Shown piece after piece: positions 1,747-58,831 of a DNA stretch of 64,000 nt; position 1 is the first letter of the stretch; each line of letters opens with the position of its first letter. The DNA lies in assembly GCF_964355755.1 (NCBI RefSeq), contig NC_092673.1, positions 17,791,648-17,855,647 on the forward strand. Reading direction: 5' to 3'. This stretch comes from Antedon mediterranea (taxonomy: Eukaryota > Animalia > Echinodermata). Position numbers and translations under genes: made by a program. The notes below the pieces were generated by a model. The model was not told the DNA's origin. It did not search any database and was given only the letters and a program-made list of their open reading frames with translations.

Positions 1747-1836
1747 ATGTTCATGACATCGGAAGCCCTTTACATCGTAGTGTTTGATCTCAGTACCCCT
1801 CTTAATGATCCTGCCATTACCATTGATTCAAATGGA
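1747..1836 (+). CDS. Gene A module 1 Roc exon (MFMTSEALYIVVFDLS)
   Basis: tcctag acceptor, gtaagt donor, Roc strand motif following G3. Confidence 0.88.
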
Positions 1837-4800
1837 GTAAGTATTTAAAGACAATGTTAAGGTAAAGGTATTTGTGATTAAAGATACCTACCAGAAGAGT
1901 GAGACGATTAAGAAAAAAATATGACTATTTTATTTTATTTTAATCAAATAAAGATATAATGTGTAGTGTTTTTTTTCTTTCAGCATAAACGTAAACATCA
2001 TTGGACCAATCTCCAGTTCATATTATCTTACATCCAGACAGTTTATTCTCATAGTCGTATTGTGAGAAAAAACATAGAAAAGGGAGTTCACGAACCAACT
2101 ATTCTTATTGTAGGTACACATAAGGGGAAACTTGGCAGGACTGAAGAACAACAAAATGATGAGGTTATATACTTTCATTATTAAACTAGTAACCAGTATA
2201 CATTTCTGTTCTAAAAGCTAATTTAAAGAAAGTATGACTACTAGAGAGCTGTATTGAATACATTTATATCAAAAGTTCTTGAATGTATTCAATACAGTAT
2301 CCTAATGGAGGTCTTTATAAAGTTTTGAGGTGTACTTTTATCTTTTTTTACAACCAGGCCAAGATGTCATTCAAAAAGATCCATGATGTGATTAAAAGTC
2401 AACCATATGGAAAGCATGTATATCACCGATATTTTGCCATTGAAAACAGCCAAGAAACTACAGATAAGAGCTTTAGTGATCTCAAACAAGTTATTGATGA
2501 GCTTATGAAAGCTTTAGAAAAGGAAATTCCTTTGAAGTGGATGCGTTTCCGATGTGAACTAGATTATCTAAGAAGAGAAAAACACTTTTCTTTGTGTCGT
2601 TTAGGAGAGGTAAGTTTTATTAGCATCATTTTTTGTTTCTGTTTTTACAGAAAAAAGAAACATTTAACAAAAAAATTTATTAATATTACATTTTACACAG
2701 ACAATCCAATATACAGTTATTATTTATTTATTATATTTATTACTAAAAGACGTCAGTGAAGGAGAGGGCTAACCAGTTCAAATGCACTTCTACAACAACC
2801 AAAACCATATTTGCATTGGATAATGAAAAAAGAGTCAAGAAAACATTAATTATTTACAAAATTCAAATGTATCTAGGCCTAGAAACATTCAAAATAAGAC
2901 AAAAAATAGTAAATTAAAAATTTATTTAATTTATTTATTCTTGGTTCTAGAAATATCAGTAAATAGTTAAATATTTTGGCGCATATGGCGTTTCATATGT
3001 TTTAATACAAAAATAAAAATGCCAACTGGTGGACTATAATGCCTTGTCTACACTATCAAACTTTATGATGTGTCCAAATATGGTAGTGGTATGCCCATAG
3101 ATGGTAGTGATATGACATCATCATGTCCATACTGTATATGGGCACATAACTTTGTTTTGGCACATAAAGTTTGATAGTGTAGACAGAGCTTAACATATAA
3201 AAGAAAATAACTACAGCCTTGGGGCAAGTCAGAATTTTGTTATTAGCTAAAATTATGTAGATTGACAATTGACACATACACAAATAGAAACCCATGTGCA
3301 AACATCAACAGACAGTAATATTAACCTATTTTTATTATATTATTATGAAACTTATTTATATAACACCAATTGTTTTATATTGTTTGATGGAGGTTTGTAT
3401 GGTGAAATTAAATGTTGATATCAAGTTTTGCGGTACACCACCTATATATAGTTCTGTATTTGATTAATATACTTTGGTCGTCCTCAGGAGTGAGAATGCT
3501 TTGTGATAATTGTTTTGTTGTTATTGATTTTCCACATACAGATACAGAACAACATAAAATTCATGATGAAAAAAGAGTTGTGTGGCTGCAAATATGAACT
3601 TTAAGGCTTTCCCATGAACAAAACAATAAATGCACTTCAATTGAATAAGAATGAAATTTAAAATCTAAACAAACTTTTATTTATTTTATATTCAAAATTG
3701 TCAAAAAGTCAGTCTCTCCATGGTGATGTACTTTTGCTTCTGTATTTTTACCTCCGCCAAGGAGGTTATGTTTTCACCCCTGTATGTGTGTGTGTGTGTG
3801 TTTGTGTGTGTGTCTGTGAACAGCCTGGAGGCCACAGTTTTTATCCGATTCTAACCAAATTTGGACACAATGATCTATGCCCAAAAAGCTCGGACGAGTT
3901 CGAATTTGAGGGGGAAAGGTCATAGGTCAAGGTCACAACTAACAAAAAACTATTTTACTGCCTAGAGACCACAGTTTTGATCCGATTCTCACCAAACTTA
4001 GCCACAATGATCAATGACACATCATATAATTGTGGTTAAATTTTGAAGGGTCAGGGTCAAAGATCAAGGTCCACAAAAAAAAAAAAAAATCAAAAAATAA
4101 TTAAAAAAAAAAATCCTCAGTGAGACTTGAACCAGCGATCTCAACTGTGAGAGGCTGGATACATAACCATTACACCACACTGTCATCCACAACTTTGTAG
4201 TGTGCAGTTAACATATTTACACTTAGAACTAATAAAAAAAATGTAAAAAAAAAAATATTCAGGGGCCATTTTATGTAGGGGAATTTTACAGTAGGCGGAG
4301 GTTTGTACTCTCGGAGTACCCTCTAGTTGTATAATATTTTACAATGCGCTTTGGGATTCCATATGCTGCAAATATTTCAAACATTCTTTTTTGATTAATA
4401 GAGTCAAATGCACGCTTAAAGTCTTCAAAAAACATGTGTCCTATGTATTGTAAAATGTGTAAAATTCACTTTATATCTGTTGAATTATAGGCCTATCTGT
4501 AAAATATAGAAATTAGGAGAAATTTAGGGGAAATTTTGCGGACACTCTCGTGTTATGGAGTACTGTTGTTGTTGCGAACTCCTTGACTGATTGTGTCGAA
4601 TAAATAAATGAAAAATGAAATGGAAAATAATAAGAGTATATTTACATAAATTTTACAAAATATTCTGATTTTGAAATATTTTATTATTTCTTTAGCTGAA
4701 AATGCTGGCAAGCAACTATGGTATTGTTGACGAATTGGAAGTATCAGTCCTGCTTCACTTCCTGTATGATCTTGGTGAAATTGTTTACATGCCTGACAAC

Positions 4801-7800
4801 AAATTATTAAGAGATAAAGCAGTGTTAGATCCGATGCAGCTGGTTGAAATTGTTACTGCATTTGTAACAGTCATTCGACCAGAATATCCAGTAAGTAGGT
4901 TCATAAAAATCTTAATTCAGTGATCCTTGGGGAAATAATAGAGGTACATGTGAATTTCTATATCATTCATGTATCAAATGCAATATCTGACAGTTACCTT
5001 ATAGTTTAACATTGAGTGATTGTATAAGGGTTTAAACATGTAATTGCATCTATAATTCTGCTGTTTGATAACTTAATAAACACAAAATCATATGTATGGC
5101 TAATTGGCGGTATTTTTTTTAGCTGCCCATGTTTAGCAAAGCTTTTGATAAACTTGGCGAGGGCATACTGGAGGAAGACTTGTTGCGTGAATTATGGAAA
5201 AAGCGTAAAGTTGACGAAGGAAAGAATTTTGAGTTCCTTGTAGCACTGATGATTCAATTAGGTTTCATTTGTGAGAGAAAGACAACCAGCAGCCAAGATG
5301 TGGCAAGTACATCTACAGTAGGTTTTATTCAGTTATCTTTTATTAAGATTATGTAAAAAATATATTTTGGTGTGATACATAATTGGTGAAATTTTACATA
5401 AATTTTCAAAATATTTGTAGGGTTATGACATTTTGGTTAAACATCCTGCTGAAAGATGTTTTTAACATGTACAGGAAATGATCTTTACTTATTAAAAGAA
5501 ATCTAAATGGCATTTTACAAATCAACAATTTCAGGAATCTGTTGGAAAGCGATCATTCTTTGTGCCACTACGCCTTGCTTTCAAGACATCAAGTGAAGTG
5601 AAACCAGCGCCTGATGATTCACAATCTATCAGTATCTATTACGACTTTAAGGGATATCTGCCAGATGTATTGTTTCCATACATGATTATTGATTTCCTCA
5701 ACAAATTTCAAAAGAAAGGAGTTGACCCAATACTGTTGTATAATCATGCTGTACTCTACTTAGACCAAGATCATCATGTGACTTTATCTCTTGTCAAACT
5801 TGTGACTAAGAAGAATGAGCAAAAGTTCTTGTTAAAGGTATGACAGATTCTATTGCTATTTGAATGTTTAATATTTTTGATTGATTTAATTTTTAGTCAA
5901 AAGCAAAACCATTCTGTTAACAGCCCTGCAATTATCATAAATCAATAAATAGATCTTATTACTAGTTTTATATTCATTGTTGAGAATTTATTTTCAATAT
6001 TATAAATTTAGGATATAGAAATGTCACAACTAAGTTTTCCTTTCAGATGACTATTAAAAGAACAGCAAGTTTTGGTAATGAGAAATATGACCCTTCCTCT
6101 GAAGCTTGTAAAAAGGTTTGTAACAACCATTTGTTGATTACTATATGAATAATTGTTTGACATTACAAGATATTAACAATAATTAATTATATCAAATAAA
6201 AACAAAGAGTTTGCTTTCTGCTATTTGTTTAACAAAATGATGCCAGTAATCTATATTATAAGTGAGAGAGTTTGTCTGTCTGTCTGTCTGTCTGTTTGTT
6301 TGTTCGTTATACAAATTTTTGTTACTGCACGTAATCTTACATATGGGGTATCAAAATGACCGCAATTGTACCGGGAATGTTCAACATCATCCGCTGCCTA
6401 GGATCCAAGTTAGGGACCAAAATGTGGTCAAAACCCCCCACTTTCGATGTTTGTTCGTTATACAAATGTCTGTTTCTGCACGTAACCATACGTATGGGGT
6501 ATCAAATGATAGCAATTGTACCCGGAAGGTTTTAAACTACATTTACAAAAATTCCACCGACTTCTGGGGTTTTTGTGGGAGGGGTGGGGGGTGGAGGTTT
6601 GTTGTGGTGGTTTGTGATGTCATATTTGCTAGGGCTCGGGGTTGTAGGCTATCGAATTGTAAATTATACTATAAAGGTTTTACAGTATTTCAATTATCCT
6701 CAGGAAAGTGTTTGGGGAAATATAGATATAGATAATATACATATTTCAATCATTAACCAATATGACACCTATTCAATTACACATTTAGCAAAGTACTTTA
6801 ACCATATCCAGCTATGTATCGGTCTTTTGGATTGTCTCATTACAGACAGCCATTCCTGTGTGAACATACACACGTTGTTTACTGTTACTGTGTAAAACTA
6901 CACACCATGCCTCCAAGGAAAAAACGTCCATTGTGGGAGAGTGGGGTTTGGGAGTTGGGGTTCAGGGGATAGTGGGGATTTTGCTTAGACCAGAATTGTG
7001 TTTGGAAATGTTAAAGTATTTAATTATCCCTGGGAAAGCGGCTGGGAGTTTGGGGTGGGGATGTAGGCCTATCACCATGACCGAAACTGTATTTGGAATG
7101 TTTTAAACTACATTTGAAAACTGCCACTGAGGGATTATGGGTTGGGAGTGATAATAACATAATTTGTACTGGAACAGTCTTCAACACATCACCCAGTGTA
7201 TCTGGGGTGTGTTTGTAGGGGGAGGAGGAAGAGTGAAAATACTGGCGTAATGAAGTAGCCTATATGCTTGGAATTGTACTAGGAAAAGTTACTATATTTG
7301 AACTGTCTAGGGGAGGAGTTAAGGTGTGTTGATTGTGGCTGGTGGTGAGAGGAGAAAGAAGGCTGGAGGACCGCAGTATCTAAATTAGATACATGACCGA
7401 AACTGGGAATGTTTAAAACTACATTTGAAAACTGCCACTGAGGGATTATGGGTTGGAAGTGATGGCTATCATAATTTGTACTGGTGAGAGGAGAAAGAAG
7501 GCCGGGGGACCGCAGTATCAACATTATATATTTTAATTATCAGCCAATATGACACCTACTCATTTACACAGTTTACAACGTACTTAAGCCATAGGCCTAT
7601 CATAGCTATGTATGCCCTCTCAATTTGAAGCTAAAGTTTAATTGAATTTGTCCTTCACTGTAAAGGGTGTGGGGTGTTATTAAGGGGTGGAGGTTGGTGC
7701 GTATACGGAGATACTGGCGTCGGGTGTTATGTACTGAGAAGGCTTTAAACTCATTTTGAAACCCGCCCTGGGGCGGGTATAATTGCTAGTAAGTATTAAA

Positions 7801-10800
7801 ATTGTATTTTTGTTGTCAAAAGTCAATGAAAACTTTTTGGGGGCCGCATACAGGAAGTACTTTAAAAACAGAAGATCTTTAATGTGTACTACTGATTCAA
7901 AAGCATATATTTGATATACAATATTATTCTTATTGTGTGTCCTAAATTGTCAATTTGCAGTGTGCTGTACATTATGTTGTTAGAAATCAACATTCAATTT
8001 TATATTTTTAGGCATTGTCAACGGTTGAGATGTCATTTGAACTTCCTAAAGATGGTGGTAGAAGAGGGATTCAGTTTGAGAGATGCATACTTTGTGACAA
8101 GTGTAGTGATACATTAGGAAAGAAGCATATTCAAATTCTTGAGGATCTCCAGCATGAGAAGTTGCCATGTAATAAAGATGGCAAGCTTGTTGAGATGGAT
8201 GTGGCACGTTACAAGAGACTATTTGGAAGTAAGAATAATAATACAGTAGTAATATAACAAATGTACAGCATACTGTATCCTTTAATACATAATATTAGTT
8301 AATAAATCCCTTTAAAGGCATTGAATTAATATTGTTTTGCAGTATGTTGTCTTATACACATCATTTTTAATTTGTGGTAGAGTAGTTGCTGGGGCGGATC
8401 CAGAGGGGGGGGGGGGGGCCCACGGGGTCCGGACCCCCCCCCCCTAAATTTTAAGGGTGCCCTTTTTTTAGAGGTTCAATATTTTATTCGTGTGACATAT
8501 TTGTGTGTATATTAGTATGCACAGAGTAGGCTACACTAACCCCAAAAATTGTGACGCGTGATGATCTCTACTTAAACTTCTAAAAATAGATCGTTTCACA
8601 TACTACAGAGGGCGCATGTAAACTTTTTACGATTCAACTCCGCGTACGTTACCATGCGCGCTATGTCATTGACGCGATTATTTGTCCATTGGTAAACACA
8701 TTTTTGTATTATTATTCTGAAAATAATTGAACAGTAAACATAATTCTTTTGAGTATTTGTTTATTTACATATCATACATTCCATCAGATCAACTATTTTT
8801 AATTTCCATAATACATCCAACCAAACATGTAAAAAATGTAGTTAAAATATCGTACTATCTAGCGTGTACGACCATACGCGGTAGATTGTTTACTCAAAAA
8901 TCATCGAACGGTCCTTTACACTATTCAACCTTGTTTTTGTAGTTGAGCCTCTCATGACCTGGGATTTGTTTGTCTTCCTACGCCAAGATAATATAGTTCT
9001 ACAATCCATGTGCTTTTTTCTCTGAGAAATATTATAGGCCTAAGTGCCAAAAAAATGTTTTTTTCTCGATATGAAGCCTTTATTATTCAAATCTTTAGAA
9101 AAATCACACATACCATAAAGAAGGTTCATTTATTTCATTTTTGAAACAATATTTGTGAAAATTACGTGAGGCTCAACTACAAAACCACCATTTTGTGATA
9201 TGATGTCATCGTAAGCCAATCAAAGCTGAGCTTTCCCGCGATCGGCAGAGCTCACGGTTGAATGATTTTGGATTCTGGCTATTTGATTGGTGGACGCGAA
9301 TCACCCACAGCGGAATGTTTTCTCTCGCGTGTACCAAGAAGTCGTGATCTCTCTGTACTGAACGGTACTACACAAATTTAGAGCAATGAATTTGTACGAA
9401 TTCCGTTAAATAAACAACTCTATATATTTTATAAACATTTTTATTGATATTTCCAATGTTAATATATAAAAGAAATTACTATAAAAACGTAATTATATGT
9501 AATTATTTCAGCGAAAAATGGCGCAATTTGTTTACAACGTTCGTGGCTATAAAGCGTGGTTCCCACTAGCGACGCAACACACGGACGTAACGCAACGTAA
9601 GTGAATTGACCAATCACAAGCGATGGCTTATTCGCTTGTGATTGCTAACTGTATATAACTTTGCTTGTCATTGGTTAAAACGCTTGCGTTGCGTTTACGT
9701 CCTTGCGTTACGTTCTAGTGGGAACCAAGCTTTAATGATCATTTTCGGCAATGTTTTAGACCCTATATTTCGAAAACTACAAGTCAGATTTTCGTAATTC
9801 TTTCTTTATTGGAATATTGAAACAAAATACCAACAGATAATGTTTAAATTGGTTGAAAAATAACAACTTTTAATTTTGCATCGTTATCCCTGCTAATAAA
9901 GTGTTATTTCCGGCAAACTAGAAAGGTGCCATTTATCATGGATTTTGCGTGCGAGAGTGCCATTTCCGGCCATCTAAGTGTGTCCTGTAACAAAATTCGC
10001 TTCGCCACAACCCCCACCATGGGGGGGGGGGGGGGGCTGTTGCTCAAATACTCAATATCTGATGTGCCCTTTTTATTGCCGGACCCACCTCTCAAAAATG
10101 TCTGGATCCGCCCCAGAGTTGCAAAAGTTATGGTAACATTGCTAGATGATCATAACATTCTGTGGTTGTACAATTTTCTAATTCAATCCATAATCTCTTA
10201 CTTGAGAGATAAGTGATATAATGCAATTTTTTTCCAAAGAATTAAATGTCTGAGATGTTTATGTCTACATTTCTAAAAATTGAATTTTTTATCATCTCGG
10301 TGTTGGCACTATAGTTTAGCCACACACACTCTAAACATTTTAATGCTGATGTTTATTGATTTAATTTAAAATAATGTAAATCTGATTTTTATCAGTGCAA
10401 AAGAATATTCCATCGGCTATTGCTGCTCAGAGTCCAGAAATCATATTAGAGTATTTTAAAGCCTTGAAAGAGGGATATGTCCCTGTCAATCTTGGAATGC
10501 TTAAAGTGATTGGGCAAGAAGGAGTGGGCAAAACGTGCCTAGTCAATGCATTACTAGGAAAGAAGTAAGTACTAGTTATTAGTCAACAAACATTACGACA
10601 ACCAAACTAATGCATAGAAGATAGATTGACATCTGTTAAGTGATTGCCTTATTTAATATAATATATTTAATAATATTATTGATTTACGTCAGATTTCAGA
10701 AAAACCATTCTGTAACAAATGGCATAGCACTGACTACAACTGTTCGCTCAAAATGGGAAGAAGATAATGCTGATAGTGGTAAACATGATGAATTATTATA

Positions 10801-13800
10801 CAAATAATGAATGTTTATGAGTTGGATGGTGAGAATATTTCATGAGTTAAAAGATCGACTGCTCTATTTTTAATGAGGCAGAGCCGACTCATGAAAAATT
10901 CTCTCCATTCAATGAATACAAAATAGTCATTATTTGTTTTATAACACACCTACTTTTATTCGATGTATCTATCATAAATCATTGATGAATGCTAGGCCAG
11001 GAAGATAGGCCATTCAAAAAGACAGTGCTCCAACTTTGGATGTGGAGTAGAACAGTTATGATGGCATGCACAACAAGTTGATTTTTGAACGCAATCAGCC
11101 AACAACATCGTGTGGCAAACATTTTCAAATTGTTTACAAAAAGCCTAACATGCTTTCAATCAATCTGGCAACTGTGGCATGGTGTCAGCAGTTTAAGTTT
11201 TATATAATTTACATTATACAATTGTTATTTACAAGCAAGCTATGTTACCGTGTTTTAATGCTAAACTGTATTTTTTAATGAAATTGAATTACATTAATCA
11301 ATGAGTTTGACAGTGGTAAAACGTCCAGATTATAGTCACATATCAATGTATTCACTTAAATCAAACATACTGTACGATCTACACAAATATGTAAACTTTG
11401 GTTTTATCCCAACAGGTGATCCTTTAAAACAGTTTGGAAAATTGGTTGCTGACAAACTGAGGAGAGCATGGTTAAATAGAAATGTATGTCAACAATAATG
11501 TAATACAAATAAATATTACTGACATTTCCGCTATCAAACCAACCATAATAAGTGAATGTTTTTGTTATGAATTTTGAAAGTTTTCTCAAAGTTAAGTTAA
11601 GTTGGAAAGTAAATGCTATTTTATTTACACTATTAAAGCTAGACAATATTATTATGTCAGGTTGAAATATCAGCTATAGATGATGACGACCGTGTTGATA
11701 TTGTTGATGAAAATAGTATTGATAACAATGGTGACAATAATGATCATGGCAATGATGTAAATGATGACAACCACGACAATAATGATGACCATGGCAATGG
11801 TGTTAATGATAACAACCACAACAAAGATAATGATGACAATGGCACTGATGTTAATAATCACAACCACAACAATGATGATGAACATGGTTTGTAACTTCTC
11901 CTTAATTTATTCTTCCAGTCAATAACACTGATAAAAAGAATATTATTAAGAATTGAGTATTATTGATATTAAGAGCGGTTGACTACAAATATCAACCTAT
12001 TGTGGCCAAATGTAAACAAAATGGATTTTCTTCATACTTTGATAATTAATCACACTTTATGTAAATATAACAAAACTGAAATATTTTTGGAACAAAATTA
12101 ATTGTTGCAATGGTAACAATTAACGCCAATTTTACCAATTTGGCATGTGAATTTTGCCCTTAATTAGATATAGGCACCTCCAAAAAAAAAGAATTTGTGA
12201 ATTGTTTTTGTGAAATCTTGCTCTTATGTAAACTTGCATAAAGAAAGTAAGGGACTGCCAATTTTAAACGTAATATCCTTTATAGATTAGATCATAGTTC
12301 AAGAGTTATTTAGATTTTCCCTCCAATGAAGTACATGGAGACCCAAGTTGTTCAATCCACTACCCAATATATTTATAGAAAACACAACTTCACCTAGAAG
12401 GGACACAGGCCCTACACAGACTGATGAAAGTGCGCGTAACTTACTCTGAAACACGCCGTTTTTACTCCACAGAAATGAATTAATTTACTTTTGGTTTTTA
12501 TGCTATGATCAATCATTGAAATTCATAAATCGTAATTCATAAGTCTGACTTCATTAAAAAATAGGAGGTGTACAACTTGTGAAAGTCGATATGTTGACAA
12601 AGTTAAAAAATATTATGTTTACACGTTTTTGAGAAACGCATGCACAAAAATAGGGTGGAAAGAAAGAAGAATAATACAGAAAAAAAAAGATGATCTCATA
12701 CAATTTCAATAATGATAACAAGGACCATTATGATGCAACAATGTTATGAAATAATATTTGTTTTACCTACAGATACTGAAACTCTATTGAATACAGATAA
12801 AAATGTACTTCAGAATTTTGAACTAAATGAGAGAGAAACCTATGATACCTTCAACATCTGGGATCATGGGGGACAAATGATGTACCATGGTATACATCGT
12901 GTAAGTTATAATTGTATTTGTATGTAAGTACTTTATATAGTATATAGATATACTTTGGTATTATATTAACATTGATATTTTATCCATATTTCTATAATTA
13001 CTACACAATCTGTAAACTCTACATAAAGTTGTATTAGTTAATCTTGTTTCCACCTAAAGTAACCTATTTAAATGTAGAAATACATATTTTAGTACAAAAG
13101 ATTACAATGTCTTTCCATGGTACTAATTTATTTTTTTGAAATGCACTACTATTACCTTACCTACAGTAAAGCCTGATTTTTGTATAATTTTGTCCACATG
13201 TCAATACAAACCCTTGGTAAATGTCTCATTTAACGTCGACTAACGTCGACAGGAAAACAGGCTTTTAAACAGTCTACCAAGTGCTATATTTTCAGTAACT
13301 CTTAATTTATGGTTTTTGTTTTCAATTTTTACTGGTTCAGGGTATTCATGAATTTGTACTACAAAAAAATTGCTTTATTGGAATGAGTATGAGTCGCATC
13401 TAGCTTGGCTAGTTAGTTAAGCCTGATCTGTTTGTCTGGCTGACAACAGGAGCACATATTGCAAAAAAACTTTTTTCCACCTGCTCCTCCCAAAACAAAT
13501 TTAGAACTTGACAGCAAACAAACAATTTTTTTTAGGCCTAATTAGTAAAATTTTTTATATACATTATTTTTCTAAATGTTCATGACATCAGAAGCACTCT
13601 ACATTGTAGTGTTTGATCTCAGTAGACCCCTTAATACTTGTGCTACTGTCATTGATTCTACTAGAGTAAGTATTTCAAGATATTGTGATAATAATGTATT
13701 TTCCCCCAAAAACATGAAAAATGAAGATTAATAAAATCAGACTTTAAATAGCCCATTTTGCAGTTTTAATAAAGTTATTTACTTCTGTGAAAAAAAATAA

Positions 13801-16800
13801 ATAAATAAGTATTTCACTTATAAAAATACAAAATAAGTGGTTAATTTTAAACAAAAACTACTGACAGAAAACTAATGTGCAAACATATTGCAGTTATTAT
13901 GTAAAAACGATTAGTTTTGACGTTAAATGTGCAAAAAGAATTCCTACAAATGTACAAAAAGAATTTCTACAAATGTGCAAAAAGAATTCCTACAAATGTG
14001 CAAATTATTTTCTCTTGACAACAGTTATAAACCATGTGTTGTTATGCGCACATCAAATTATTCAACACAGGGGATGTATAAAAAACACACTACCTATACC
14101 TAATTACTACAATCATGAGTGACTCTTGAATTAATTTATAATCATCATAATTCTTGAGATTTTTAGTACGTTTAGTATATTTAAAGATGTATTGTCGCAC
14201 TGAAAAAATAATTCTCACCACAATTTTTGTTGAATATGCCATTTTAATGTAACATAATAGTTATCCACTTTGACCAAAAATTGGACGGAAAAATGTATTT
14301 ACCTGAAAAAACTGTAATTGATTGAATTTAACCATTTATTAGGTTATATGCAATATCATGCATGTATATTGATTCTGTCAAAATCTTTATTTATTTATTC
14401 TTTCCTTAGCACTATTTCCTTAGTCAATTTTTCACAGTAAATTCCTTATGGCCAGGAATCGATGTGGTTATGTTTCACGATGGGCAATCAAAAATTTAAC
14501 GAAATCATGTTTGTTTCATATATCAAGCATGAATCACAATTAAACAAAATTTGGTATTTCAGGTCATATTTCATCATGTGGCAATACAATTACGTGCGTA
14601 GCGCATAATGCATGCGTACGCTCGCTTAACATTTTTTAAATAGTTTTTTTTAGTTAGAGTATGTTTCAGGCAACTTTAAGCGTTTAAAAAATTGCAATGA
14701 GTGCGTAGATTTTTTAACCGGCACTGCACGTTAAACGTTGATATGCACTCATTTTGCCCGATTTCTGTTTTACAACTTTTCTTTAATAATATCATCATGA
14801 TTCACTTTTCTAATTGAAATTGCGTTATACGAGCACGTCAAAAGTGACAGGCTATGCACATGTAAGTTAACAAAATAGTGAAAATATGCTAAATTTTAAA
14901 ATTATTATAGATCGTCAGAATGCTCGGGAACACCTATTTTTCATTTCATTTTCTTGAAGTGTATGTATCATATGTATGATTTACTATGAAATTAAGAGAA
15001 CAAAAGTTGATTAAGTCATCATCAATTGCATATTAAATTTTTTTTTTAAATTAATTTTGACAATCCAACAAATTATGACATTTTCTTAGGCCGAAATAAT
15101 AAACTTAACATTAACTTTCTTCCTTAAAATGTTCATATATGAAAAGTTAATAGTATATAGTTTGACATAGTTTTGTCATTGTTTATAATTTTTAAAGATG
15201 CCATCATAGTAACAAATTATAATTCATTGCAGTATGTAATAATCTATTTGCACCAAAGTGGTTTACTGCATAGTAAATACATGGAGGAATCTTTCTACAA
15301 CTGTAAGTCAGTTGTGTATGGCTCAGTGGTCTGTGCTCGTGTCTATGGCATTCAAGGTACCGAGATCGAGTCTCACCTTGGGAAACGAAACAAAATCAGA
15401 TTTTTTTTTAATATCCGTATTGTTTGTTCAATTTTATTTCTTATAGTGTATAGATTATACACATGATTTATAATGAAATCTCGATAAAAAGTAACTTATG
15501 TCTTTATTATTACTGTATGTAACAAATGTGGTTTATGACATTATACGCAGAGGGATCTTTGATCGGATTGTGATACCGGCTATTGTATTTGCGTTAGGTC
15601 CTATCATATATTATAAATAATTAAAGATTCTGGGAAAATCAATCAATCAATATATTATTTAAAAATTTAATATCTTTATTTAAATCAATGCATATAACCT
15701 ATAATTTGTCATAGTGACGAATTAAATCTACCGGTAGTAAATATTTGTAATTTTATAAGTGAAAACATAATTTTTTTTTTCTATGGAAGTGATTAACTTT
15801 ATTAAAACTACAAAATGATTCATATTCTGATTTAATTAATCTTCATTTTTCATGTTTTTGGAACATCATTAATAGAATTTAGGAGTTTATTTTAATAATT
15901 TTATAATTGAGCTTATTCCAAATAATTTAGTCCTTAAATAAATATAGATCTATTACTGGATGTAAATTTTGAGAAGGCCATACACATTTTCATGCAATTT
16001 CTAAGAGTTTTTGTCACTCTAAACTCTAAACTGAAATGTCATTTTAATTGAACATTATTTTGCAGAAAAAGCGTAAACATCATTGGTCCAATCTTCAGTT
16101 CATATTATCTTTCATCCAGACGGTTTATTCTCATAGTTGTAAGGAAGTGAAAAAAGACACTGAGAATGAAGTGAAAAAAGACACTGAGAATGAAGTTCAC
16201 AAACCAACTATCCTTATTGTAGGTACACATAAGGGTAAGCTTGGTTGTACTAAAAAAAAACAAAATGATGAGGTAATACTATTTCTGTTTATATATTAGG
16301 GAGTTTTCGCAGGAGCACGTAAACGTTAACTTTATTTCCCAACGTGCAACATGCAAGCTCCACTCCCTTTGTAAACAAATCGATCTGCGAGAGATCACTT
16401 ATTTTTATTAATTAGGCGGTAAAGTGCAGGGAAACAAGAATTTCTGTATATTTTCGTTCTGCAGAAAAACTCGCTGAGATTTTCACTGTTTCTAAGGACC
16501 CTTCCACATGTGTCTGCTCTACTTTTGGTTAATGCATTGAGCAAAATGTTGTCAATACCTTTGGCAAATTCAAGTAACAATGATTCCCGTCTAACTTTCA
16601 GATGAGGTAGACTAAGCAGTTCAAGTGCTTAGCCATACGATTCAAATTGCTGGCCAAGGATAATTCTGCAAGCACCTTTCTGTAATACTCTCTAATTCTT
16701 TAGTCTGTGCATCAGTTAATCCAAAATGCCAGACAGGACAAGCATATTCTAAAATAATTAAGAAAACAAAAATGGGAAATTTAAATTTATGTTTTAATTA

Positions 16801-47600: not shown

Positions 47601-47997
47601 GGTTGTAAGGTGTGTCTGGGCCCTTCTGAAACTTGGGAGTATATTGGCTCAGTTCATTTGCATAATGTCATTACATCATCTGTGAGGGTAACGATTGGTC
47701 CTAAGTTGATCCAGGGGTGTTTAAGTGGGAGTGATTAACGGTGTCATAAGGTATTTCTGTGATGGATGACACTGTCAAATCTGTACTTAAATAGTGTCGA
47801 TCACTCCTAGTTTTAACGATGGGAAAGTCACAAAATTAAGCTAAGTGTTTTCTTTAGGGACTCTATTATAAACTAAATGGTCATTAAAACATCTGGACAA
47901 ACTCTCCTTTGGACTTTCTGGGTCAAGTTTGTGAACCTATCTGAATTCCGATACAAAGGTCAATTTCTTAAATATAAAAGTATATCCTTATATTACA
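44675..47997 (-). mobile_element. Non-autonomous LTR retrotransposon (Gypsy-like 4-bp TSD)
   Basis: 587-bp LTRs 44675-45261 and 47411-47997 with tgtaatata...tatattaca ends, TSD ctac, minus-strand PBS-like TGGTGG at 47410, polypurine tract at 45262-45290; no pol motifs seen. Confidence 0.93.
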
Positions 47998-48827: not shown

Positions 48828-51319
48828 GTATTATTATCATTATTATTACATTTCTTTACCCAGGGTAGCCCAAACAGTTTAAACTTGTTTTCATTGGTGC
48901 CCAGTATGCAACATTATACATTTTTACAAACTCAGCAGATACTTAGTTATTAAATACAGCAAACAATACACTTACAGAAGTCTCAAATCAACTGGCAAAT
49001 TGTTCCATATATTTGTTCCACTAACACAAAAACTTGTGAGGTAACTCTCCTTTTTAGTAAAAGGGACCTTACGTTTCATAACAGTGGACTGTCTTATTTT
49101 ACTAGTTGTTTAAAGTGCCGTGAATAGGTTTGTCATGCCTATGGGTGTCAAATTGTTGAGACATTTGAAAACGAGAGTGGCTTTTTGTAATACCACTCTT
49201 TTGGGAAAAAGGAAGCCATTTCACTTTTAAAAACATTTCTGATGATGGGATAAGAAAATCGCAGTTTGGAATTAGTCTAGCTGCTCTTTTCATACACTTG
49301 TTAAAGACACCTTCCCTACGTTTTTTAGATCTATTTTAAGATCACAAACTATATTTAATGTAAAAATAATACTATATATGGTCCTATTGCGATAACTTTT
49401 TCGTCTTTAAATGGTTAAAAATGTGAAAAATAAGTCGATTCTAATAATTATAGCGGCCCGCTATAAATCCCAAAATGCATTGCGCACGGATTGATATTTC
49501 TGTTTTTCTTCTGTAATTCACCCACTTTTCGATTGATCGTGAGCCAAAATAAATGGAAGACTCCTAACTTTTCAGCGAAAATACCGGGTTTTCCCCAATT
49601 TGTATTAACGGAGTCTGGCAAAAATAGAAAGACAATTAATGCAGCAACTATACAACATCAGGCTAGGTATGTAGCTAGCGTACGATGTTCGTACGTTACC
49701 GGTGTTTACCAGCTAGGCCTACAAAACTAAGCCTAGGCCTAAAGACCGTCCACGAGAGGTCAGTCGCCGCGAGCTACTTGAGTAGTGCATTGTTTCTCAT
49801 CATAAATCATAATTTACCATAAAACGTACATTTAAGACAAGGAATGACCTGGTTTAATGTTTTTAAAGTAATATATATGTATTATTTTTACAAAACGTCA
49901 CAAATTGTAGGGAAGGTGTCTTTAAGCAAAGTATTATATGTGATATATATCGCCCTCCCCATACTGTACAGCAGTAGTCCAGCGATGGTCTAACTGAGCT
50001 TACATAGAGTATGCGTGGAGGGGGGGGGGGGGGGTGCGGGCACAATACCGTACTCTGCTTAACATACCAAGTTTATATGTAACTGTTTTCATCAATTATT
50101 ACCCCTAGGCATTTACAACGTATTTCTCTAACAAGTACAGTATCAATATTAATATTACAATCTACATTGGAAATTTTTTTTTTGGATCTGATGAGAGCAT
50201 AGATTTAGTCTTTTTAGCATTTATTTTGACATACAGTATAAAATTACCAAACAAATAACAAAAAATAGAATCTCTTGGCAACTGAATTCAAAGTAAAGTT
50301 GTGCATTTGGTCAATTCTTTAGTTACTACCAGATAAACTTTACTTATATGCAGATGAAACCACAATATACATCTTGCATCTCATTTTTATATTATAGAAA
50401 TCTCGGAGGCTGATTTCAGGCAACTGGTGGCTGAAATAGAAAATTGGTATGATCGGAATGGATATCTCACAAGACTGAAACTTTTATACAAAGACCATCT
50501 GCAGTTCGGTAGAGCTAAAACTGTTTGGGATCTACTGAATGATTTATCAGCCTCTGGAAGTTTGAGTTCATCAAACCTTACTATTCTATATGACACAATA
50601 ACGGTAACCAAGCAATTTGGCTTCCAGTCAAATGTTGAGAATCAACCTCCAGAAGATATTAAGGATCATGTAGTATCAATGTTGACACCTTTCAGACAGA
50701 AAGTTTATCAGTTAGGACTACAACTGAAAGAGAGTGATGTATACAAACTAGATGCTTTATATAACACTCCACTGAAGAAATATCAAGACAGCTGGAGTAT
50801 GATAATGGACTTTGAACATAGAGGGATCATTGATGAGGATTCCACAAAGATGGTTCAATTTCTTAGATTTTCAGAAAAAATTGGAATGACAAAGGCTAGA
50901 AGGATTTTTGTTGGTTGGTTTATTTGTTTTTTATTTTGTTTCTTTCAAATCATTGTTCACTGCTTAATAATATTTGCTACATACAGCACAATCAAGTGAG
51001 CGTACTGAACCAATCAAATATTTTAGGCAGATTCAAATTTGTTCATTGGTTTGTTTGGGTTTTTTTGCCAATTTATTGTAACTTAAAAGCACTCCATTGT
51101 CATTCAATCAAATAATTTATTAGTAATTAATTAATACATAATGTATAGGTATTCTATTGACAATTTATTATTACTTTAACATTTATAATGCTTGCTGAAA
51201 TCAATCTGAAGTCATTGTATTGCTTTTAATTCTAATATAGTTTTGATATTGAAACAAGTAATTTCTGTCCAAAATACTGAGACGATGAATGGAGGTTATA
51301 GCTGTAGATGTACTGTATG

Positions 51320-51351
<32 letters not shown>

Positions 51352-54300: not shown

Positions 54301-57300
54301 ATTGTGACATAAGTTGACAATTTTAAAATTGTGTATTGTACTGTACATAAATTAGAACATATTCAGATTTGATTTATTAAGTTATTCATCATCATACATA
54401 GTACAATGATAATTGTTTTCTTGGCAGAAAAACACAAGCAAAACAATACACACATAATATTTACATTCATGATCAACATGGAAATTAGCAACTGATAAAG
54501 CAATATAAAATACAAATGACTTCATCTTACAAAATTTGCATCTTAATTTATACTAAGAAACATTCACTGGTCTAATGTTAGACACCAGTGTACTGATATA
54601 CTGTAGGCCTATGAAATATTTTTGTCAAATACTAGTTTCTCATCATTACCATTCCAAATTATTCGCATTATTGCCTTTTAATTTAGAGTTAAATTTTGTT
54701 GTATCCTAATTCGAGTAACATTTTATGTAAGTTTTTTATTTTTTATTATTACAAAATATGTTTTTGTATTATACTCTATACTGTATATACAGTAAGAATG
54801 AAGAAGGTAGATTGATTAATTAATTTGTCAGATGTATTTTATATTCTACATAATTTACTACGATAAGCCTATTATTACTTTTGTAATTATTCATTTAGTA
54901 TTGATATTTTGTCTATATACAGAATCATCTGAAGATTTTCGGACAAAACCAACATCTTGGGAAATGTCGGACTTACAAACCAAGTTCAACCACCTCAAAT
55001 GTGATCTTGGCAAACACTATGATGGGGAAAGATACCTTTGGCTAAAATGTTGCTTATTTGATGTTATTCCTAGAGCAGACCTCACACGTACTGATTTCAT
55101 AGCAACTGATCTGTTCAATGCGCTCCATGACAACAGTAAAATCAAACCGGATGATGTCACCATCCTTTTTGAGGTTGCCGAATTATCAGGTTTGCAGCTT
55201 GCTGTAGATCTTGTAAAGCAGTATATGGAAGATAACAACGTCAAAGGTACTGGTGACAAGTTATCCTCTTACCGGAAACGGTTATTTAGGGCTCTGAAAG
55301 AAGTTGGACCAGACAAGTTACAAGATGTCGTTGCTTATTATGGCATTCGAAGATTTGGTTTTCAAAACATGTGGGACGTAGTGTTTTACTTGGAAAGCGT
55401 TTTACAGCTTGAGGATGAACCATCAAAATTAAATGTGTTTGCTGCACATATTGGAATGCGAGCAAGAAATATTTTATGTAAGTATTTAATTTTCTATTAT
55501 AATATTTTATTTCTGTTCCATGTGGAAGAAAGAAAGTTATGGATAGGTATCGTTAGACTGTTATGCTTTATCATCATCATTACTTCATCATAATTATATC
55601 TCAGTCGTTGTCATCACTATTCATCATTATCAATCAAAATAAAAACTATACTAATGCTATTATTATTGTTTTATTACATTATATAGGCCTTCTTAAAAAA
55701 ACAGTACCCGAGTCAGTGTCAGGGAGGATATTTGGAGGTAGTGATTATTCTATTAAAATTCAGACAATGTTGGTACAAGTATCGTATTGGTATGACGAGC
55801 ATGATTCACTTGATATGCTGAAGGTGTTGTGCAAAGATCTGATAACGCCTAACAATGCTCTACAAAATGCTGACACCACCATGGAGTTGTTTGATTTATT
55901 GCAACAGGCTGGGTGTCTTTCCACTACCAACTTTAAAGTTCTTATCGATATCATCAATATCACCGGTACCAAAGGTGCTCTTGAGGCTAACAAATATCTG
56001 AAGAACATGTTTGATGAATCTGATCATCATGTTACATCTTTTACAACGTATCGACAGAAACTGATAGATTTCGGCAAAACACTTTCCCAAGACAATTTAA
56101 GAATGCTGATCAGTCTAAACGATGTTTCTAGGAGACAATGTGTCAACCAGTGGACTGTGATACTAGATCTTGAACAAAGGGGCATCCTGAGGGAAGATAC
56201 ATTGCAATCATTTATCAAACATTTAAAGGAAAATAAGATGACTGTTGCTGCTGAAACGTTAGAAGGTTAAGTTAATTCTCAGTATTATGTACTAAATAAC
56301 TGATAAGTTTGTCTGTGTACTGCAAGTATAGATCATGAAATGGTTTAATTTCTACTTTTTAAAATTAACTCTATATTATAATTAAAATAAGAGGAGAAAA
56401 ACAGCTTTTTTTCAGAACTCAATATTTATTTTTTACTTAAACTATGACACACACCTACAGTATTCTATTTTTTGGTCTGAAATGCTTTGTGTTCTTCTCC
56501 TTATTTCTCCAGTTTTTGTGTTGTGTTAATATTTTTATAATATGTTACTATTACTGTATTTATTACAATAGCATTTTAATTAATACTTTTTTTCTTGTTT
56601 ATTGGAGTCTATAGTTAACATTTTAAATTCTTTTTTTTAATCTCATAATGTAATTTTATTTATTATATAATAATGTAGTATTTATATAGTTTGTAGATTT
56701 ATTTTGTCAGATGTATTTTATATTCTACATAATTTACTACGATAAGCCTATTATTACTTTTGTAATTATTCATTTAGTATTGATATTTTGTCTATATACA
56801 GAATCATCTGAAGATTTTCGGACAAAACCAACATCTTGGGAAATGTCGGACTTACAAACCAAGTTCAACCACCTCAAATGTGATCTTGGCAAACACTATG
56901 ATGGGGAAAGATACCTTTGGCTAAAATGTTGCTTATTTGATGTTATTCCTAGAGCAGACCTCACACGTACTGATTTCATAGCAACTGATCTGTTCAATGC
57001 GCTCCATGACAACAGTAAAATCAAACCGGATGATGTCACCATCCTTTTTGAGGTTGCCGAATTATCAGGTTTGCAGCTTGCTGTAGATCTTGTAAAGCAG
57101 TATATGGAAGATAACAACGTCAAAGGTACTGGTGACAAGTTATCCTCTTACCGGAAACGGTTATTTAGGGCTCTGAAAGAAGTTGGACCAGACAAGTTAC
57201 AAGATGTCGTTGCTTATTATGGCATTCGAAGATTTGGTTTTCAAAACATGTGGGACGTAGTGTTTTACTTGGAAAGCGTTTTACAGCTTGAGGATGAACC

Positions 57301-58831
57301 ATCAAAATTAAATGTGTTTGCTGCACATATTGGAATGCGAGCAAGAAATATTTTATGTAAGTATTTAATTTTCTATTATAATATTTTATTTCTGTTCCAT
57401 GTGGAAGAAAGAAAGTTATGGATAGGTATCGTTAGACTGTTATGCTTTATCATCATCATTACTTCATCATAATTATATCTCAGTCGTTGTCATCACTATT
57501 CATCATTATCAATCAAAATAAAAACTATACTAATGCTATTATTATTGTTTTATTACATTATATAGGCCTTCTTAAAAAAACAGTACCCGAGTCAGTGTCA
57601 GGGAGGATATTTGGAGGTAGTGATTATTCTATTAAAATTCAGACAATGTTGGTACAAGTATCGTATTGGTATGACGAGCATGATTCACTTGATATGCTGA
57701 AGGTGTTGTGCAAAGATCTGATAACGCCTAACAATGCTCTACAAAATGCTGACACCACCATGGAGTTGTTTGATTTATTGCAACAGGCTGGGTGTCTTTC
57801 CACTACCAACTTTAAAGTTCTTATCGATATCATCAATATCACCGGTACCAAAGGTGCTCTTGAGGCTAACAAATATCTGAAGAACATGTTTGATGAATCT
57901 GATCATCATGTTACATCTTTTACAACGTATCGACAGAAACTGATAGATTTCGGCAAAACACTTTCCCAAGACAATTTAAGAATGCTGATCAGTCTAAACG
58001 ATGTTTCTAGGAGACAATGTGACAACCAGTGGACTGTGATACTAGATCTTGAACAAAGGGGCATCCTGAGGGAAGATACATTGCAATCATTTATCAAACA
58101 TTTAAAGGAAAATAAGATGACTGTTGCTGCTGAAACGTTAGAAGGTTAAGTTAATTCTCAGTATTATGTACTAAATAACTGATAAGTTTGTCTGTGTACT
58201 GCAAGTATAGATCATGAAATGGTTTAATTTCTACTTTTTAAAATTAACTCTATATTATAATTAAAATAAGAGGAGAAAAACAGCTTTTTTTCAGAACTCA
58301 ATATTTATTTTTTACTTAAACTATGACACACACCTACAGTATTCTATTTTTTGGTCTGAAATGCTTTGTGTTCTTCTCCTTATTTCTCCAGTTTTTGTGT
58401 TGTGTTAATATTTTTATAATATGTTACTATTACTGTATTTATTACAATAGCATTTTAATTAATACTTTTTTTCTTGTTGATTGGAGTCTATAGTTAACAT
58501 TTTAAATTCTTTTTTTTAATCTCATAATGTAATTTTATTTATTATATAATAATGTAGTATTTATATAGTTTGTAGATTTATTTCGCATGCTATTGTTCAT
58601 TTTTGCTTGATTGTTGAACTTAATTTACTCAAAGCTATTTTAAAATCTTATTATATTTTTAGATAATTTTCCAACATTTCAATATCCCAATATTGCTGCT
58701 CGTGATTATCAAGATGCATACAATGAAGCCTTGAAAGGAGGGTCTGTCAAAGTGAATCTTGGAATGCTTAAAGTAATTGGACAGGAAGGAGTGGGTAAAA
58801 CATGCCTCATTAATGCATGTCTTGGAAAAGA
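48803..58831 (+). CDS. Roco gene B (3'-truncated by window): about 10 DED-like domains followed by a Roc P-loop exon
   Basis: In-frame exon chain 48803-48827, 50398-50913, 54923-55477, 55687-56265, 56802-57356, 57566-58144, 58663-58831, all GT-AG and all joined in phase 1. Confidence 0.82.
48835..50130 (-). mobile_element. L2/CR1-clade LINE 3' fragment
   Basis: LYVSSVRPSLDYCCTVWG and KRAARLI...PSSEMF...WLP join after removing the nested element; (AAT)n tail. Confidence 0.75.
49305..49921. mobile_element. Kolobok-like non-autonomous element
   Basis: TTAA|agacaccttccctac ... gtagggaaggtgtct|TTAA. Confidence 0.8.
50398..50913 (+). CDS. Gene B tandem DED-like exon 1
   Basis: FRQLVAEI...LKLLYKD...WDLLNDL...GSLSSSNLTIL and FRQKVYQLGLQL...IMDFEHRGII; phase 1-1. 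Confidence 0.85.
51550..54095 (-). mobile_element. Decayed Ty1/Copia LTR retrotransposon with deletions and insertions
   Basis: Copia-type PBS GGTTATGGGCCCAG at 54088-54075; gag-like FYFDGEAEHYELW and DDQSLELVMRD...GKEAWEIL; knuckle relic NCGGSGH; integrase-like RCILLDSGL..TFWTYAV..AA..CNR...PYE. Confidence 0.85.
53330..53633 (-). mobile_element. tRNA-derived SINE
   Basis: Minus-strand A box TGGCCGAGCGG, B box GTTCGAG, central core, LINE-like 3' hairpin tail. Confidence 0.8.
54923..55477 (+). CDS. Gene B tandem DED-like exon 2
   Basis: LKCCLFDVIP...DLFNAL...IKPDDVTILFEV and SSYRKRLFRAL...WDVVFYLE; tacag acceptor, gtaagt donor. Confidence 0.88.
55687..56265 (+). CDS. Gene B tandem DED-like exon 3
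   Basis: LKVLCKDLI...MELFDLLQQAGCLSTTNFKVL and TYRQKLIDFGKTLS...ILDLEQRGIL; phase 1-1. Confidence 0.88.
56802..57356 (+). CDS. Gene B tandem DED-like exon 4 (duplicate of exon 2)
   Basis: Identical translation to 54923-55477. Confidence 0.85.
57566..58144 (+). CDS. Gene B tandem DED-like exon 5 (duplicate of exon 3, one V>D change)
   Basis: QCVNQW vs QCDNQW. Confidence 0.85.
58663..58831 (+). CDS. Gene B Roc P-loop exon (LKVIGQEGVGKTCLINAC)
   Basis: tttttag acceptor, gtaagt donor; paralog of 10396-10564 with the same length and phases. Confidence 0.92.

What the first reader, a model, noticed from the sequence alone, without database searches (positions are those of the whole stretch)
1747..58831. 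Clustered poly-DED / Roc-COR / 2TM gene family: candidate Roco-based death or immune receptor system
Seen: two tandem paralogues share a 169-nt Roc P-loop exon (NLGMLKVIGQEGVGKTCL). Gene B shows the family N-terminus (five tandem-DED-like exons) and gene A shows the C-terminus (Roc-COR, Roc-COR, linker, two hydrophobic helices). Known: Roc-COR is a nucleotide-dependent dimerisation switch (LRRK2, DAPK1, MFHAS1), and tandem DEDs nucleate caspase-8/FADD/cFLIP filaments. Inference: a full member reads DED(n)-(Roc-COR)(n)-2TM, a kinase-less membrane-tethered switch that could seed DED filaments, analogous to NLRs with Roco replacing NACHT. Clustering, copy-number change and rapid divergence fit an innate-immune family. 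I know of no characterised protein with this architecture, but I cannot search, and neither gene is complete in this window.
Basis: partly seen in the sequence, partly recalled or inferred. Interest (0 to 1): 0.92.

Follow-up and report, generated by a model that had tools for sequence, protein, structure and literature searches.

The report
Feather-star Roco GTPases with death-effector cassettes
This gene cluster, likely from a feather star, mixes LRRK2-type GTPase modules, caspase-8-like death-effector exons and a predicted membrane anchor; the same death-effector cassette sits on a feather-star NLR-type protein, so the genes likely encode an immune or cell-death switch, though neither their splicing nor their function has been shown.

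Summary
The exons are real. Gene A (1747-24955) reads Roc end-COR, Roc-COR, linker, two hydrophobic helices. Gene B (50398-58831) has five phase-1 exons, each a tandem DED (caspase-8 tDED, Z 17), then a Roc P-loop exon. Relatives form a large uncharacterised crinoid family: one Antedon model is tDED-Roc-COR-tDED-2TM, another tDEDx4-Roc, and related cassettes sit on an Anneissia tDEDx5-NACHT-LRR protein, which supports the NLR analogy.

- Only three DED exons are distinct; two come from a 99.8%-identical 1.9-kb duplication.
- DEDs follow COR in 37 of 41 relatives and precede Roc in 5, so there is no single DED(n)-(Roc-COR)(n)-2TM plan.
- Gene A's second Roc has an AA splice acceptor.
- The guanine-specifying G4 Asp is lost.
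- No repeat sensor domain is visible.
- No transcript links any exons.

Roc-COR with death folds or 2TM tails is already listed in sponge, placozoan, mollusc, algal and prokaryotic surveys; I found no paper on this crinoid tDED family. The scan had noted other Roco immune candidates but not this one. Verdict: new variant of a known kind, likely an NLR-like death or immune scaffold, untested.

The parts
1747..8228 (+). Gene A unit 1: end of Roc plus COR. Exons 1747-1836, 1984-2163 (G4 GTHKGK), 2358-2609, 4696-4890, 5123-5317, 5535-5837, 6047-6115, 8012-8228 (ends phase 1). The P-loop and G3 exons must lie upstream of the window.
   Evidence: Open 500-codon chain with AG/GT sites; COR-A E 3e-6; 77% identical over 500 aa to XP_071948791.1
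10396..10564 (+). Gene A unit 2 P-loop exon, 169 nt, phase 1 to 2, GQEGVGKT
   Evidence: 67% identical to the P-loop segment that directly follows a COR in XP_071947615.1
10693..12900 (+). Unit 2 Roc middle: 10693-10778 (G2 Thr), 11416-11483, Asp/Asn-rich insert exon 11661-11886, probable small exon 12379-12429, 12773-12900 (G3 WDHGGQ)
   Evidence: family matches. The 12379-12429 exon is chosen by phase only.
13576..13665 (+). Unit 2 Roc strand exon with a non-canonical acceptor (AA, not AG); a possible lesion, polymorphism or assembly error
   Evidence: not checked in raw reads
16066..20355 (+). Unit 2 G4 exon (GTHKGK) and COR: 16066-16272, 17218-17460, 17761-17949, 18503-18703, 19005-19319, 19570-19623, 20148-20355 (ends phase 1)
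   Evidence: COR-A E 1.8e-4; sister to XP_071948668.1 (COR-linker-2TM) at 100/100
20892..24955 (+). Gene A tail: linker exons 20892-20933, 21738-21794, 22868-22886, 23767-23804 and terminal exon 24729-24955 with two hydrophobic helices, a basic flank and a stop
   Evidence: In-frame chain of 126 codons. The terminal exon is 39% identical to the 2TM tail of P0015 (E 5e-10). Linker words resemble P0011 and P0015 by eye. My hydropathy scan scored only the first helix above 1.5; the second is inferred from the alignment to P0015.
50398..50913 (+). Gene B tandem-DED cassette Z, phase 1 to 1; weak donor; no first exon identified upstream
   Evidence: Pfam DED E 4.5e-7; sister to the post-COR tDED of XP_071948801.1; lowest donor score of 27
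54923..56265 (+). Tandem-DED cassettes Y (54923-55477) and X (55687-56265), first copy
   Evidence: X: Pfam DED E 3.6e-9, AlphaFold pLDDT 87, caspase-8 tDED Z 17.4, rmsd 2.6 over 164 residues; 81-83% identical to cassettes of XP_071965522.1
56802..58144 (+). Second copy of Y (56802-57356) and X (57566-58144), inside a 1879-base tandem duplication
   Evidence: 3 differences in 1885 bases; junction not verified in raw data
58663..58831 (+). Gene B Roc P-loop exon, 169 nt, phase 1 to 2; no further family exon before the window ends
   Evidence: 88% identical over 48-49 residues to the P-loop segment that follows the N-terminal tDED of XP_071948801.1

Best explanation
The window holds parts of two predicted genes of an expanded crinoid Roco family, in which Roc-COR units, tandem-DED exons and a two-helix tail are exchangeable phase-1 modules, and the proteins likely work as NLR-like scaffolds whose Roc-COR self-association would cluster tandem DEDs to recruit FADD/caspase-8-type partners for cell death or immune signalling. 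Shown: exons, phases, folds, the family in two crinoids, varied module order, sharing of the cassette with a NACHT-LRR protein, loss of the G4 Asp. Inferred: the splicing of A and B; membrane anchoring with both ends in the cytosol; dimerisation through COR as in other Roco proteins; relaxed guanine selectivity; partner recruitment. Covalent strings of cassettes would act as a pre-built nucleus rather than a self-extending filament, because the DED2 Phe is missing. The trigger is not identified; my guess is disturbance of the protein itself or of a fused bait domain, not a repeat-domain ligand.
For: Tandem-DED fold: top matches are caspase-8, cFLIP and vFLIP. Roc-COR fold: LRRK1, CtRoco and LRRK2 at E about 1e-10 for the stand-in P0023; sequence hits. 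One RefSeq model holds tDED-Roc-COR-tDED-2TM, and gene B's P-loop exon is 88% identical to it. A second, more distant Roc carries four 96-100% identical tDEDs at its N-terminus. Cassettes 37-46% identical to Z head an Anneissia NACHT-LRR protein. The wider clade swaps Death, CARD, TIR, HEPN, GT4, Macro, KIX/TAZ, kinase and Ras-family domains, the pattern Kaur et al. describe for counter-invader AP-GTPases (PMC8195603). Expansion: 24 of 31 hits on one contig. Units 1 and 2 diverged under purifying selection, dN/dS 0.55, bootstrap 0.43-0.73.
Against: No transcript joins any two exons. Gene B has no identified first exon, and cassette Z has the weakest donor of 27. Gene A unit 2 has an AA acceptor; skipping that exon keeps the frame but removes a Roc strand. 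Only 8 of 31 Antedon models contain the clade's P-loop, which fits fragmentary annotation or decay. No LRR, WD40 or ankyrin sensor lies in the modelled parts. G4 Asp is absent in 19 of 19 clade-II proteins and both window units, so a GTP switch is not assured. The residue at the caspase-8 F122 position is aromatic in 3 of 79 cassettes (register set by eye). tDED without a protease is also the layout of the inhibitors cFLIP-S and vFLIP (established knowledge). No expression, infection or partner data exist.
Confidence: 0.5

Rival explanations
1. The tandem DEDs act as brakes or decoys, like cFLIP-S or viral FLIP: they would cap caspase-8 chains or absorb pathogen effectors aimed at DED proteins, with Roc-COR and the tail setting location.
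For: The cassettes carry no caspase domain. MC159, vFLIP and cFLIP are among the top fold matches, Z 12-14, and cFLIP tops the sequence-profile search. The DED2 FL motif needed for chain growth (PMC3477315) lacks its Phe.
Against: Related cassettes occupy the effector position of a NACHT-LRR protein, where death folds normally signal (PMC3879445). Repeated multiplication of cassettes raises valency, which favours nucleation (inference). A conserved aromatic residue two positions on (61 of 79) may replace the Phe.
Confidence: 0.17
2. The family is real, but these copies are decaying products of birth-and-death turnover or assembly artefacts, and the modelled long proteins are not made.
For: AA acceptor at 13574-13575. 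A near-identical 1.9-kb duplication. Reverse-transcriptase fragments right after gene B's P-loop exon, with no next Roc exon in the remaining 5.1 kb, whereas in gene A it follows after 128 bases. No first exon for B. Many Roco genes in brown-algal clusters are called pseudogenes (PMC11378527).
Against: None of the 33 modelled exons has an internal stop or frameshift. dN/dS is below 1. Unit 2 plus linker plus 2TM has a close counterpart in A. mediterranea. Near-identical tDED arrays occur in an independent Antedon model.
Confidence: 0.2
3. A and B are one transcription unit. The phase-1 donor at the end of COR would splice either to the membrane tail or across 30 kb to the tDED string and the next Roc, so the DEDs are inter-unit or post-COR modules, not a family N-terminus.
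For: Phases are compatible. All three cassettes are closest to post-COR cassettes, and 37 of 41 relatives have tDED after COR. No other family exon lies between 25 and 50.3 kb. Two Antedon models run COR-2TM-tDED (P0024, P0039).
Against: Gene A ends in a stop, with AATAAA at 25834 and beyond. N-terminal tDED-Roc occurs in 5 of 41 relatives, including the one closest to B's P-loop exon. The 37:5 ratio is biased by a profile that held a C-terminal tDED and by 5'-truncated models.
Confidence: 0.18

Closest known systems
Roco proteins, DAPK1-like kinase-less branch (Roc-COR plus death fold); LRRK1/2 and C. tepidum Roco as structural references
   Same: Roc-COR tandem with G1-G3 motifs; fold matches at E about 1e-10. 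Relatives with ankyrin-Roc-COR and Roc-COR-Death. Death, CARD or TIR fusions to Roc-COR are reported in Trichoplax (PMC11378527), Aplysia (PMC9334734) and sea anemones (PMC5094078).
   Different: Tandem DEDs in arrays, repeated Roc-COR units, a 2TM tail, no kinase or LRR in the modelled parts, and no G4 Asp.
AP-GTPase(Roc)+COR counter-invader proteins of Kaur et al. 2021 (PMC8195603)
   Same: Constant Roc-COR core with interchangeable effectors (section 15). The supplement lists prokaryotic LRR+AP-GTPase+COR+TM+TM ('COR+TM' 85 times) and one sponge APGTPase+COR+DED+TRADDN+caspase.
   Different: Those carry N-terminal LRRs and are mostly prokaryotic. 'DED+AP-GTPase' had 0 hits in supplement file 4 (stored cut). 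No crinoid tDED family was seen in the parts searched.
Brown-algal ROCO candidate immune receptors (PMC11378527; Ectocarpus work as reviewed in PMC4104024)
   Same: Expanded, exon-shuffled Roco genes, clustered in Ectocarpus, some with transmembrane-like C-termini and many pseudogenes.
   Different: There the shuffled exons are LRR sensors; here they are death-effector modules and whole Roc-COR units.
Metazoan NLRs with death-fold effectors, including crinoid tDEDx5-NACHT-LRR (XP_033103043.1)
   Same: Related tDED cassettes, array organisation and lineage expansion.
   Different: No STAND ATPase and no LRR here; the DED is more often C-terminal; membrane tail.
Caspase-8, cFLIP and vFLIP tandem DED
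   Same: Same two-domain fold, Z 17.4, rmsd 2.6 over 164 residues, 20% identity; DED1 hydrophobic patch kept.
   Different: No caspase domain; DED2 Phe not conserved; covalently repeated and fused to a GTPase-like core.

Membership tests
Roco (Roc-COR) | Roc G-domain with P-loop, switch-I Thr and WDxxGQ | tested here: met
   GQEGVGKT, SVTNG and WDHGGQ in unit 2; profile aligns to M. barkeri and C. tepidum Roco and LRRK2
Roco (Roc-COR) | COR directly after Roc | tested here: met
   COR-A hits on window exons and relatives; Foldseek to LRRK1, CtRoco and the COR domain (stand-in model P0023, mean pLDDT 50)
Roco (Roc-COR) | Nucleotide-dependent dimerisation | not testable with these tools
   Known for other Roco proteins (PMC4104024 passages); inferred here
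Canonical guanine-specific GTPase switch | G4 (N/T)KxD aspartate | tested here: not met
   THKG in both window units; Asp in 0 of 19 clade-II proteins and 54 of 131 aligned relatives; role of the Asp from PMC7952092
Tandem-DED fold (caspase-8/cFLIP/vFLIP type) | Two DEDs packed in tandem | tested here: met
   Cassette X: pLDDT 87, Z 17.4. Y and Z were not folded; they align to the same profile.
Tandem-DED fold (caspase-8/cFLIP/vFLIP type) | Exposed DED2 FL motif for chain growth | tested here: inconclusive
   Aromatic in 3 of 79 or 0 of 79 cassettes in the two possible registers, but hydrophobic at the Leu position (57 of 79) and aromatic next (61 of 79); register set by eye
Caspase-8 / cFLIP-L | Caspase or pseudo-caspase domain after the tDED | tested here: not met
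   The next exon is a Roc P-loop; no caspase family hit or 67
NLR | Central NACHT or NB-ARC STAND domain | tested here: not met
   Central domain is Roc-COR
NLR | Repeat sensor domain (LRR, WD40, TPR, ANK) | tested here: inconclusive
   None in the modelled exons; the 5' end of A and the 3' part of B lie outside the window; clade-I relatives carry ankyrins
NLR | Death-fold effector module | tested here: met
   tDED cassettes related to those on a crinoid NACHT-LRR protein
DAPK1 / LRRK kinases | Protein kinase domain | tested here: inconclusive
   None in the window; both genes are incomplete; 1 of 26 scanned relatives has an N-terminal kinase
AP-GTPase counter-invader proteins (Kaur 2021) | Variable effector modules around a constant Roc-COR | tested here: met
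Innate immune gene family | Expression in immune cells, pathogen induction, positive selection | not testable with these tools
   Only a pairwise dN/dS of 0.55 could be computed

The most novel reading that the evidence does not exclude
Crinoids run a second NLR-like receptor system built on Roco instead of STAND ATPases. It draws tandem-DED arrays from the same exon pool as their NLRs, multiplies them by ongoing duplication, chains several Roc-COR units in one membrane-tethered polypeptide, and uses a G-domain that has lost guanine selectivity, possibly switching on ATP.
Probability: 0.25. Interest if true: 0.88.

Novelty: new variant of a known kind. Interest (0 to 1): 0.6.

Why it matters
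Roco proteins have been proposed as immune receptors in algae, bacteria and invertebrates, but in the papers I read this rests on domain lists. Here a Roco clade and a NACHT-LRR protein of the same animal class share one effector cassette with a defined downstream readout (DED recruitment and caspase activation). That makes 'Roc-COR can replace NACHT as an immune switch' directly testable. A large Roc clade that keeps G1-G3 but lost the G4 Asp also offers a natural test of what nucleotide binding does in Roc-COR, a debated point for LRRK2 (own knowledge). If the copies are decaying, the locus is an ordinary birth-and-death cluster.

Tried and rejected
No genome was held for this window, so A and B could not be extended and family members could not be counted in this species.

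RNA: no RNA holder was listed among 9 runs; one was guessed to be RNA with share 0.05. Laying four runs on 9900-25600 showed no exon-exon joint among the 15 joints listed; 685 more were not shown. This is no evidence on expression. The table of differing letters was cut and did not show position 13575. The duplication junction and the AA acceptor remain unchecked in raw data.

The ESM Atlas look-up gave no answer. No complex prediction was run: filaments and Roco dimers would pass or fail by likeness to solved structures.

The full-length model of P0023 was poor (mean pLDDT 50; Roc N-half below 30), so the nucleotide pocket was not inspected. A single-sequence PDB search with cassette X found nothing at E 1; the profile and fold searches did.

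First exon of B: six ATG-to-phase-1-donor candidates in 25.5-50.4 kb, none with support. Extra family exons in 25-50 kb or after 58831: none by tblastn with 185 proteins or by six-frame HMM. Fourteen other ORFs: one weak RT hit, nothing else.

Rejected: five distinct DED exons (three are distinct); DEDs as the fixed family N-terminus; G4 loss as unique to this clade (77 of 131 wider relatives also lack it); positive selection (not shown). The direction of cassette transfer between Roc clades was not tested and is not claimed.

Homologue searches were limited to 2000 and 2942 residues, so longer multi-module proteins could be missed.

Literature: searches listed no paper on crinoid DED-Roco genes. 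These were judged from listings, and the library is open-access only. Supplement file 4 of PMC8195603 was stored cut and file 13 was not searched.


Full report
Source. The window is AT-rich, intron-rich animal DNA. All 39 hits of the first two homologue searches are Antedon mediterranea proteins, none listed as the window's own, so the source is inferred to be a feather star close to that species. No genome was held.

Observation. I rebuilt the exons by hand against splice sites. Gene A unit 1 is eight exons (1747-8228) with 500 open codons. Unit 2 starts with the 169-nt P-loop exon at 10396, has G2, an Asp/Asn-rich insert and G3 exons, then repeats the same eight exons in the same phases (13576-20355). 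Five tail exons end in a hydrophobic hairpin and a stop at 24955. Gene B is five phase-1-to-1 exons of 516-579 nt and a second 169-nt P-loop exon at 58663. Order, phase and family HMM scores down to E 9e-60 exclude chance. Three qualifications apply. The stretch 54820-56704 recurs at 56699-58583 with 3 differences in 1885 bases, so the cassettes read Z-Y-X-Y-X. The acceptor at 13576 is AA, and none of 12 nearby AGs rescues the frame. Both G4 motifs read GTHKGK.

Domains. Cassette X folds at pLDDT 87. It matches caspase-8 tDED at Z 17.4, rmsd 2.6 over 164 residues; the next rows are other caspase-8 chains, MC159, vFLIP and cFLIP, and single death folds start at Z 11 (Foldseek agrees). Each exon is therefore two DEDs; Y and Z were not folded but fit the same profile. 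Roc-COR is supported by Pfam on single exons, by profile hits to prokaryotic Roco and LRRK2, and by Foldseek of the relative P0023 to LRRK1, CtRoco and LRRK2 at E about 1e-10 (a low-confidence model).

Family. A COR exon pair found 31 Antedon proteins, 24 on one 36.2-Mb contig (positions on it unknown). Architectures include tDED-Roc-COR-tDED-2TM (XP_071948801.1), ANK-Roc-COR-Roc-COR-2TM (XP_071947615.1), COR-linker-2TM (XP_071948668.1), many Roc-COR-tDED, COR-Death and kinase-Roc-COR-Death (accessions). Only 8 of the 31 hold the clade's P-loop, so most models are 5'-incomplete, and all are predictions whose transcript support I could not see. A tree of 34 Roc-COR segments separates an ankyrin-bearing clade I from clade II, places both window units in clade II, and makes unit 2 sister to XP_071948668.1 at 100/100. 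A profile search of 1.84 billion proteins gave 4049 hits at E 0.001; the best 150 were listed. Of 20 looked up, 16 were crinoid, 2 brittle star, 1 centipede and 1 unnamed; I chose them for their architectures, so this is no census. Among 179 proteins, 41 hold both tDED and Roc or COR: 36 with tDED only after, 4 only before, 1 on both sides. The query profile favoured the C-terminal arrangement.

Shuffling. In a tree of 29 cassettes the window's three fall in separate, well-supported groups. Z pairs with the post-COR cassette of XP_071948801.1. Y and X group with cassettes of clade-I Roco proteins on another contig, at 81-83% identity to XP_071965522.1. Gene B's P-loop exon is clade II: 88% to XP_071948801.1 and 32-35% to clade I. 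If spliced as modelled, B is a mosaic across Roc clades; direction was not tested. COR ends, tDED exons, the P-loop exon start and the tail start are all phase 1, which permits this exchange.

Link to NLRs. Anneissia XP_033103043.1 is tDEDx5-NACHT-LRR, its cassettes 37-46% identical to Z. Antedon XP_071949336.1 is NB-ARC-TPR-tDEDx2. Antedon XP_071952312.1 has four 96-100% identical tDEDs before a Roc. The cassette is thus used on STAND and Roco cores alike, and near-identical arrays recur. Other members of the wider clade carry Death, CARD, TIR, HEPN, GT4, Macro, KIX/TAZ or Ras-family domains (35 of 138 new proteins scanned).

Switch and output. G1-G3 are intact. The G4 Asp, the main guanine determinant (PMC7952092 passages), is missing in 19 of 19 clade-II proteins (16 Gly, 3 Ala). 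It is present in clade I and the Anneissia outgroup and in 54 of 131 aligned relatives; 7 of 138 were dropped for gaps or no Thr. Relaxed nucleotide selectivity is an inference. Caspase-8 chains grow through the DED2 F122/L123 motif (PMC3477315 passages). In 79 cassettes the Phe position is aromatic in 3, or 0 in the alternative register, while a neighbouring aromatic is conserved in 61. Caspase-8-style self-extension is therefore doubtful; a covalent array could supply the nucleus instead (inference). The tail has a short loop and basic flank in the window and in relatives, so it would anchor rather than sense. Units 1 and 2 have dN/dS 0.55 (0.43-0.73) over 486 codons: constrained, fairly fast, no evidence of positive selection.

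Mechanism. Best reading (0.5): an NLR-like scaffold in which Roc-COR self-association clusters tandem DEDs that recruit FADD/caspase-8-type partners, with membrane-anchored and soluble forms. Rivals: FLIP-like brake or decoy (0.17); decaying copies or assembly artefact (0.2); a single alternatively spliced A-B locus (0.18, compatible with either function). No transcript, partner or phenotype was available.

Comparison. It is a Roco by the Roc-COR tandem, not an NLR (no STAND domain), not caspase-8 or cFLIP (no protease domain), and not a canonical GTP switch by motif. Precedents: variable-effector AP-GTPases (PMC8195603, section 15 and passages read; supplements searched), including prokaryotic COR+TM+TM and one sponge COR+DED protein; exon-shuffled algal ROCOs (PMC11378527, abstract and section 14; PMC4104024 passages); TIR or Death Roco proteins in Aplysia and anemones (PMC9334734 and PMC5094078 passages); death-fold effectors on invertebrate NLRs (PMC3879445 passages). 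Nine searches (listings only) showed no paper on crinoid tDED-Roco genes; the proteins stand in RefSeq as uncharacterised. Earlier scan notes held other Roco immune candidates but none with DED and none like P0023.

Verdict. Observation confirmed, interpretation partly supported, new variant of a known kind, interest 0.6.

Noticed in passing
P0091 (XP_033103043.1), P0155 (XP_071949336.1): Crinoid STAND proteins with tandem-DED arrays: tDEDx5-NACHT-LRR and NB-ARC-TPR-tDEDx2.
   Followed up: partly
P0051, P0063, P0055, P0077, P0087, P0072, P0143, P0034, P0096, P0102: Roc-COR proteins fused to TAZ/KIX, Macro, HEPN, GT4, OGFOD2-like, Ras-family, fn3, CARD or TIR domains, resembling integrated bait or effector domains.
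   Followed up: no
P0001 (XP_071965522.1): Roc-COR-tDED-ZU5-tDED model holding close relatives of both cassettes X and Y.
   Followed up: partly
P0119 (XP_071947213.1), P0106, P0108: The same cassettes in proteins without Roc: tDED-helical region-tDED, tDED with RING and NHL repeats, tDED with ubiquitin.
   Followed up: no
window 11661-11886: Asp/Asn/His-rich repeat exon inserted between switch I and G3 of Roc; its length varies widely among paralogues.
   Followed up: partly
window 24889-25406: A 128-bp unit repeated four times that copies the last codons and stop of the terminal exon into the 3' region.
   Followed up: no
window 1-1578: 81-bp satellite, 19.4 copies, 97% matches, in the intron before the first modelled exon.
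   Followed up: no
window 59148-59672, 63276-63698, 4289-4465: Reverse-transcriptase fragments; two lie just after gene B's P-loop exon.
   Followed up: no
window 44675-45261 and 47411-47997: 587-bp direct repeats, 99% identical, flanking about 2.1 kb with unassigned minus-strand ORFs; possibly a small LTR-like element.
   Followed up: no
window 53655-54138: Broken minus-strand ORFs that look like retrotransposon gag by recall; no Pfam hit.
   Followed up: partly
window 8012-8228 and 20148-20355: The last COR exon carries a CxxC pair, later His and Cys residues conserved across paralogues; a possible zinc site, not tested.
   Followed up: no
window 28157-28496 with 30836-31174; 29509-29786 with 30337-30638: Nested inverted repeats around 29.8-30.3 kb, about 80% identical, like a decayed foldback or DNA transposon.
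   Followed up: no
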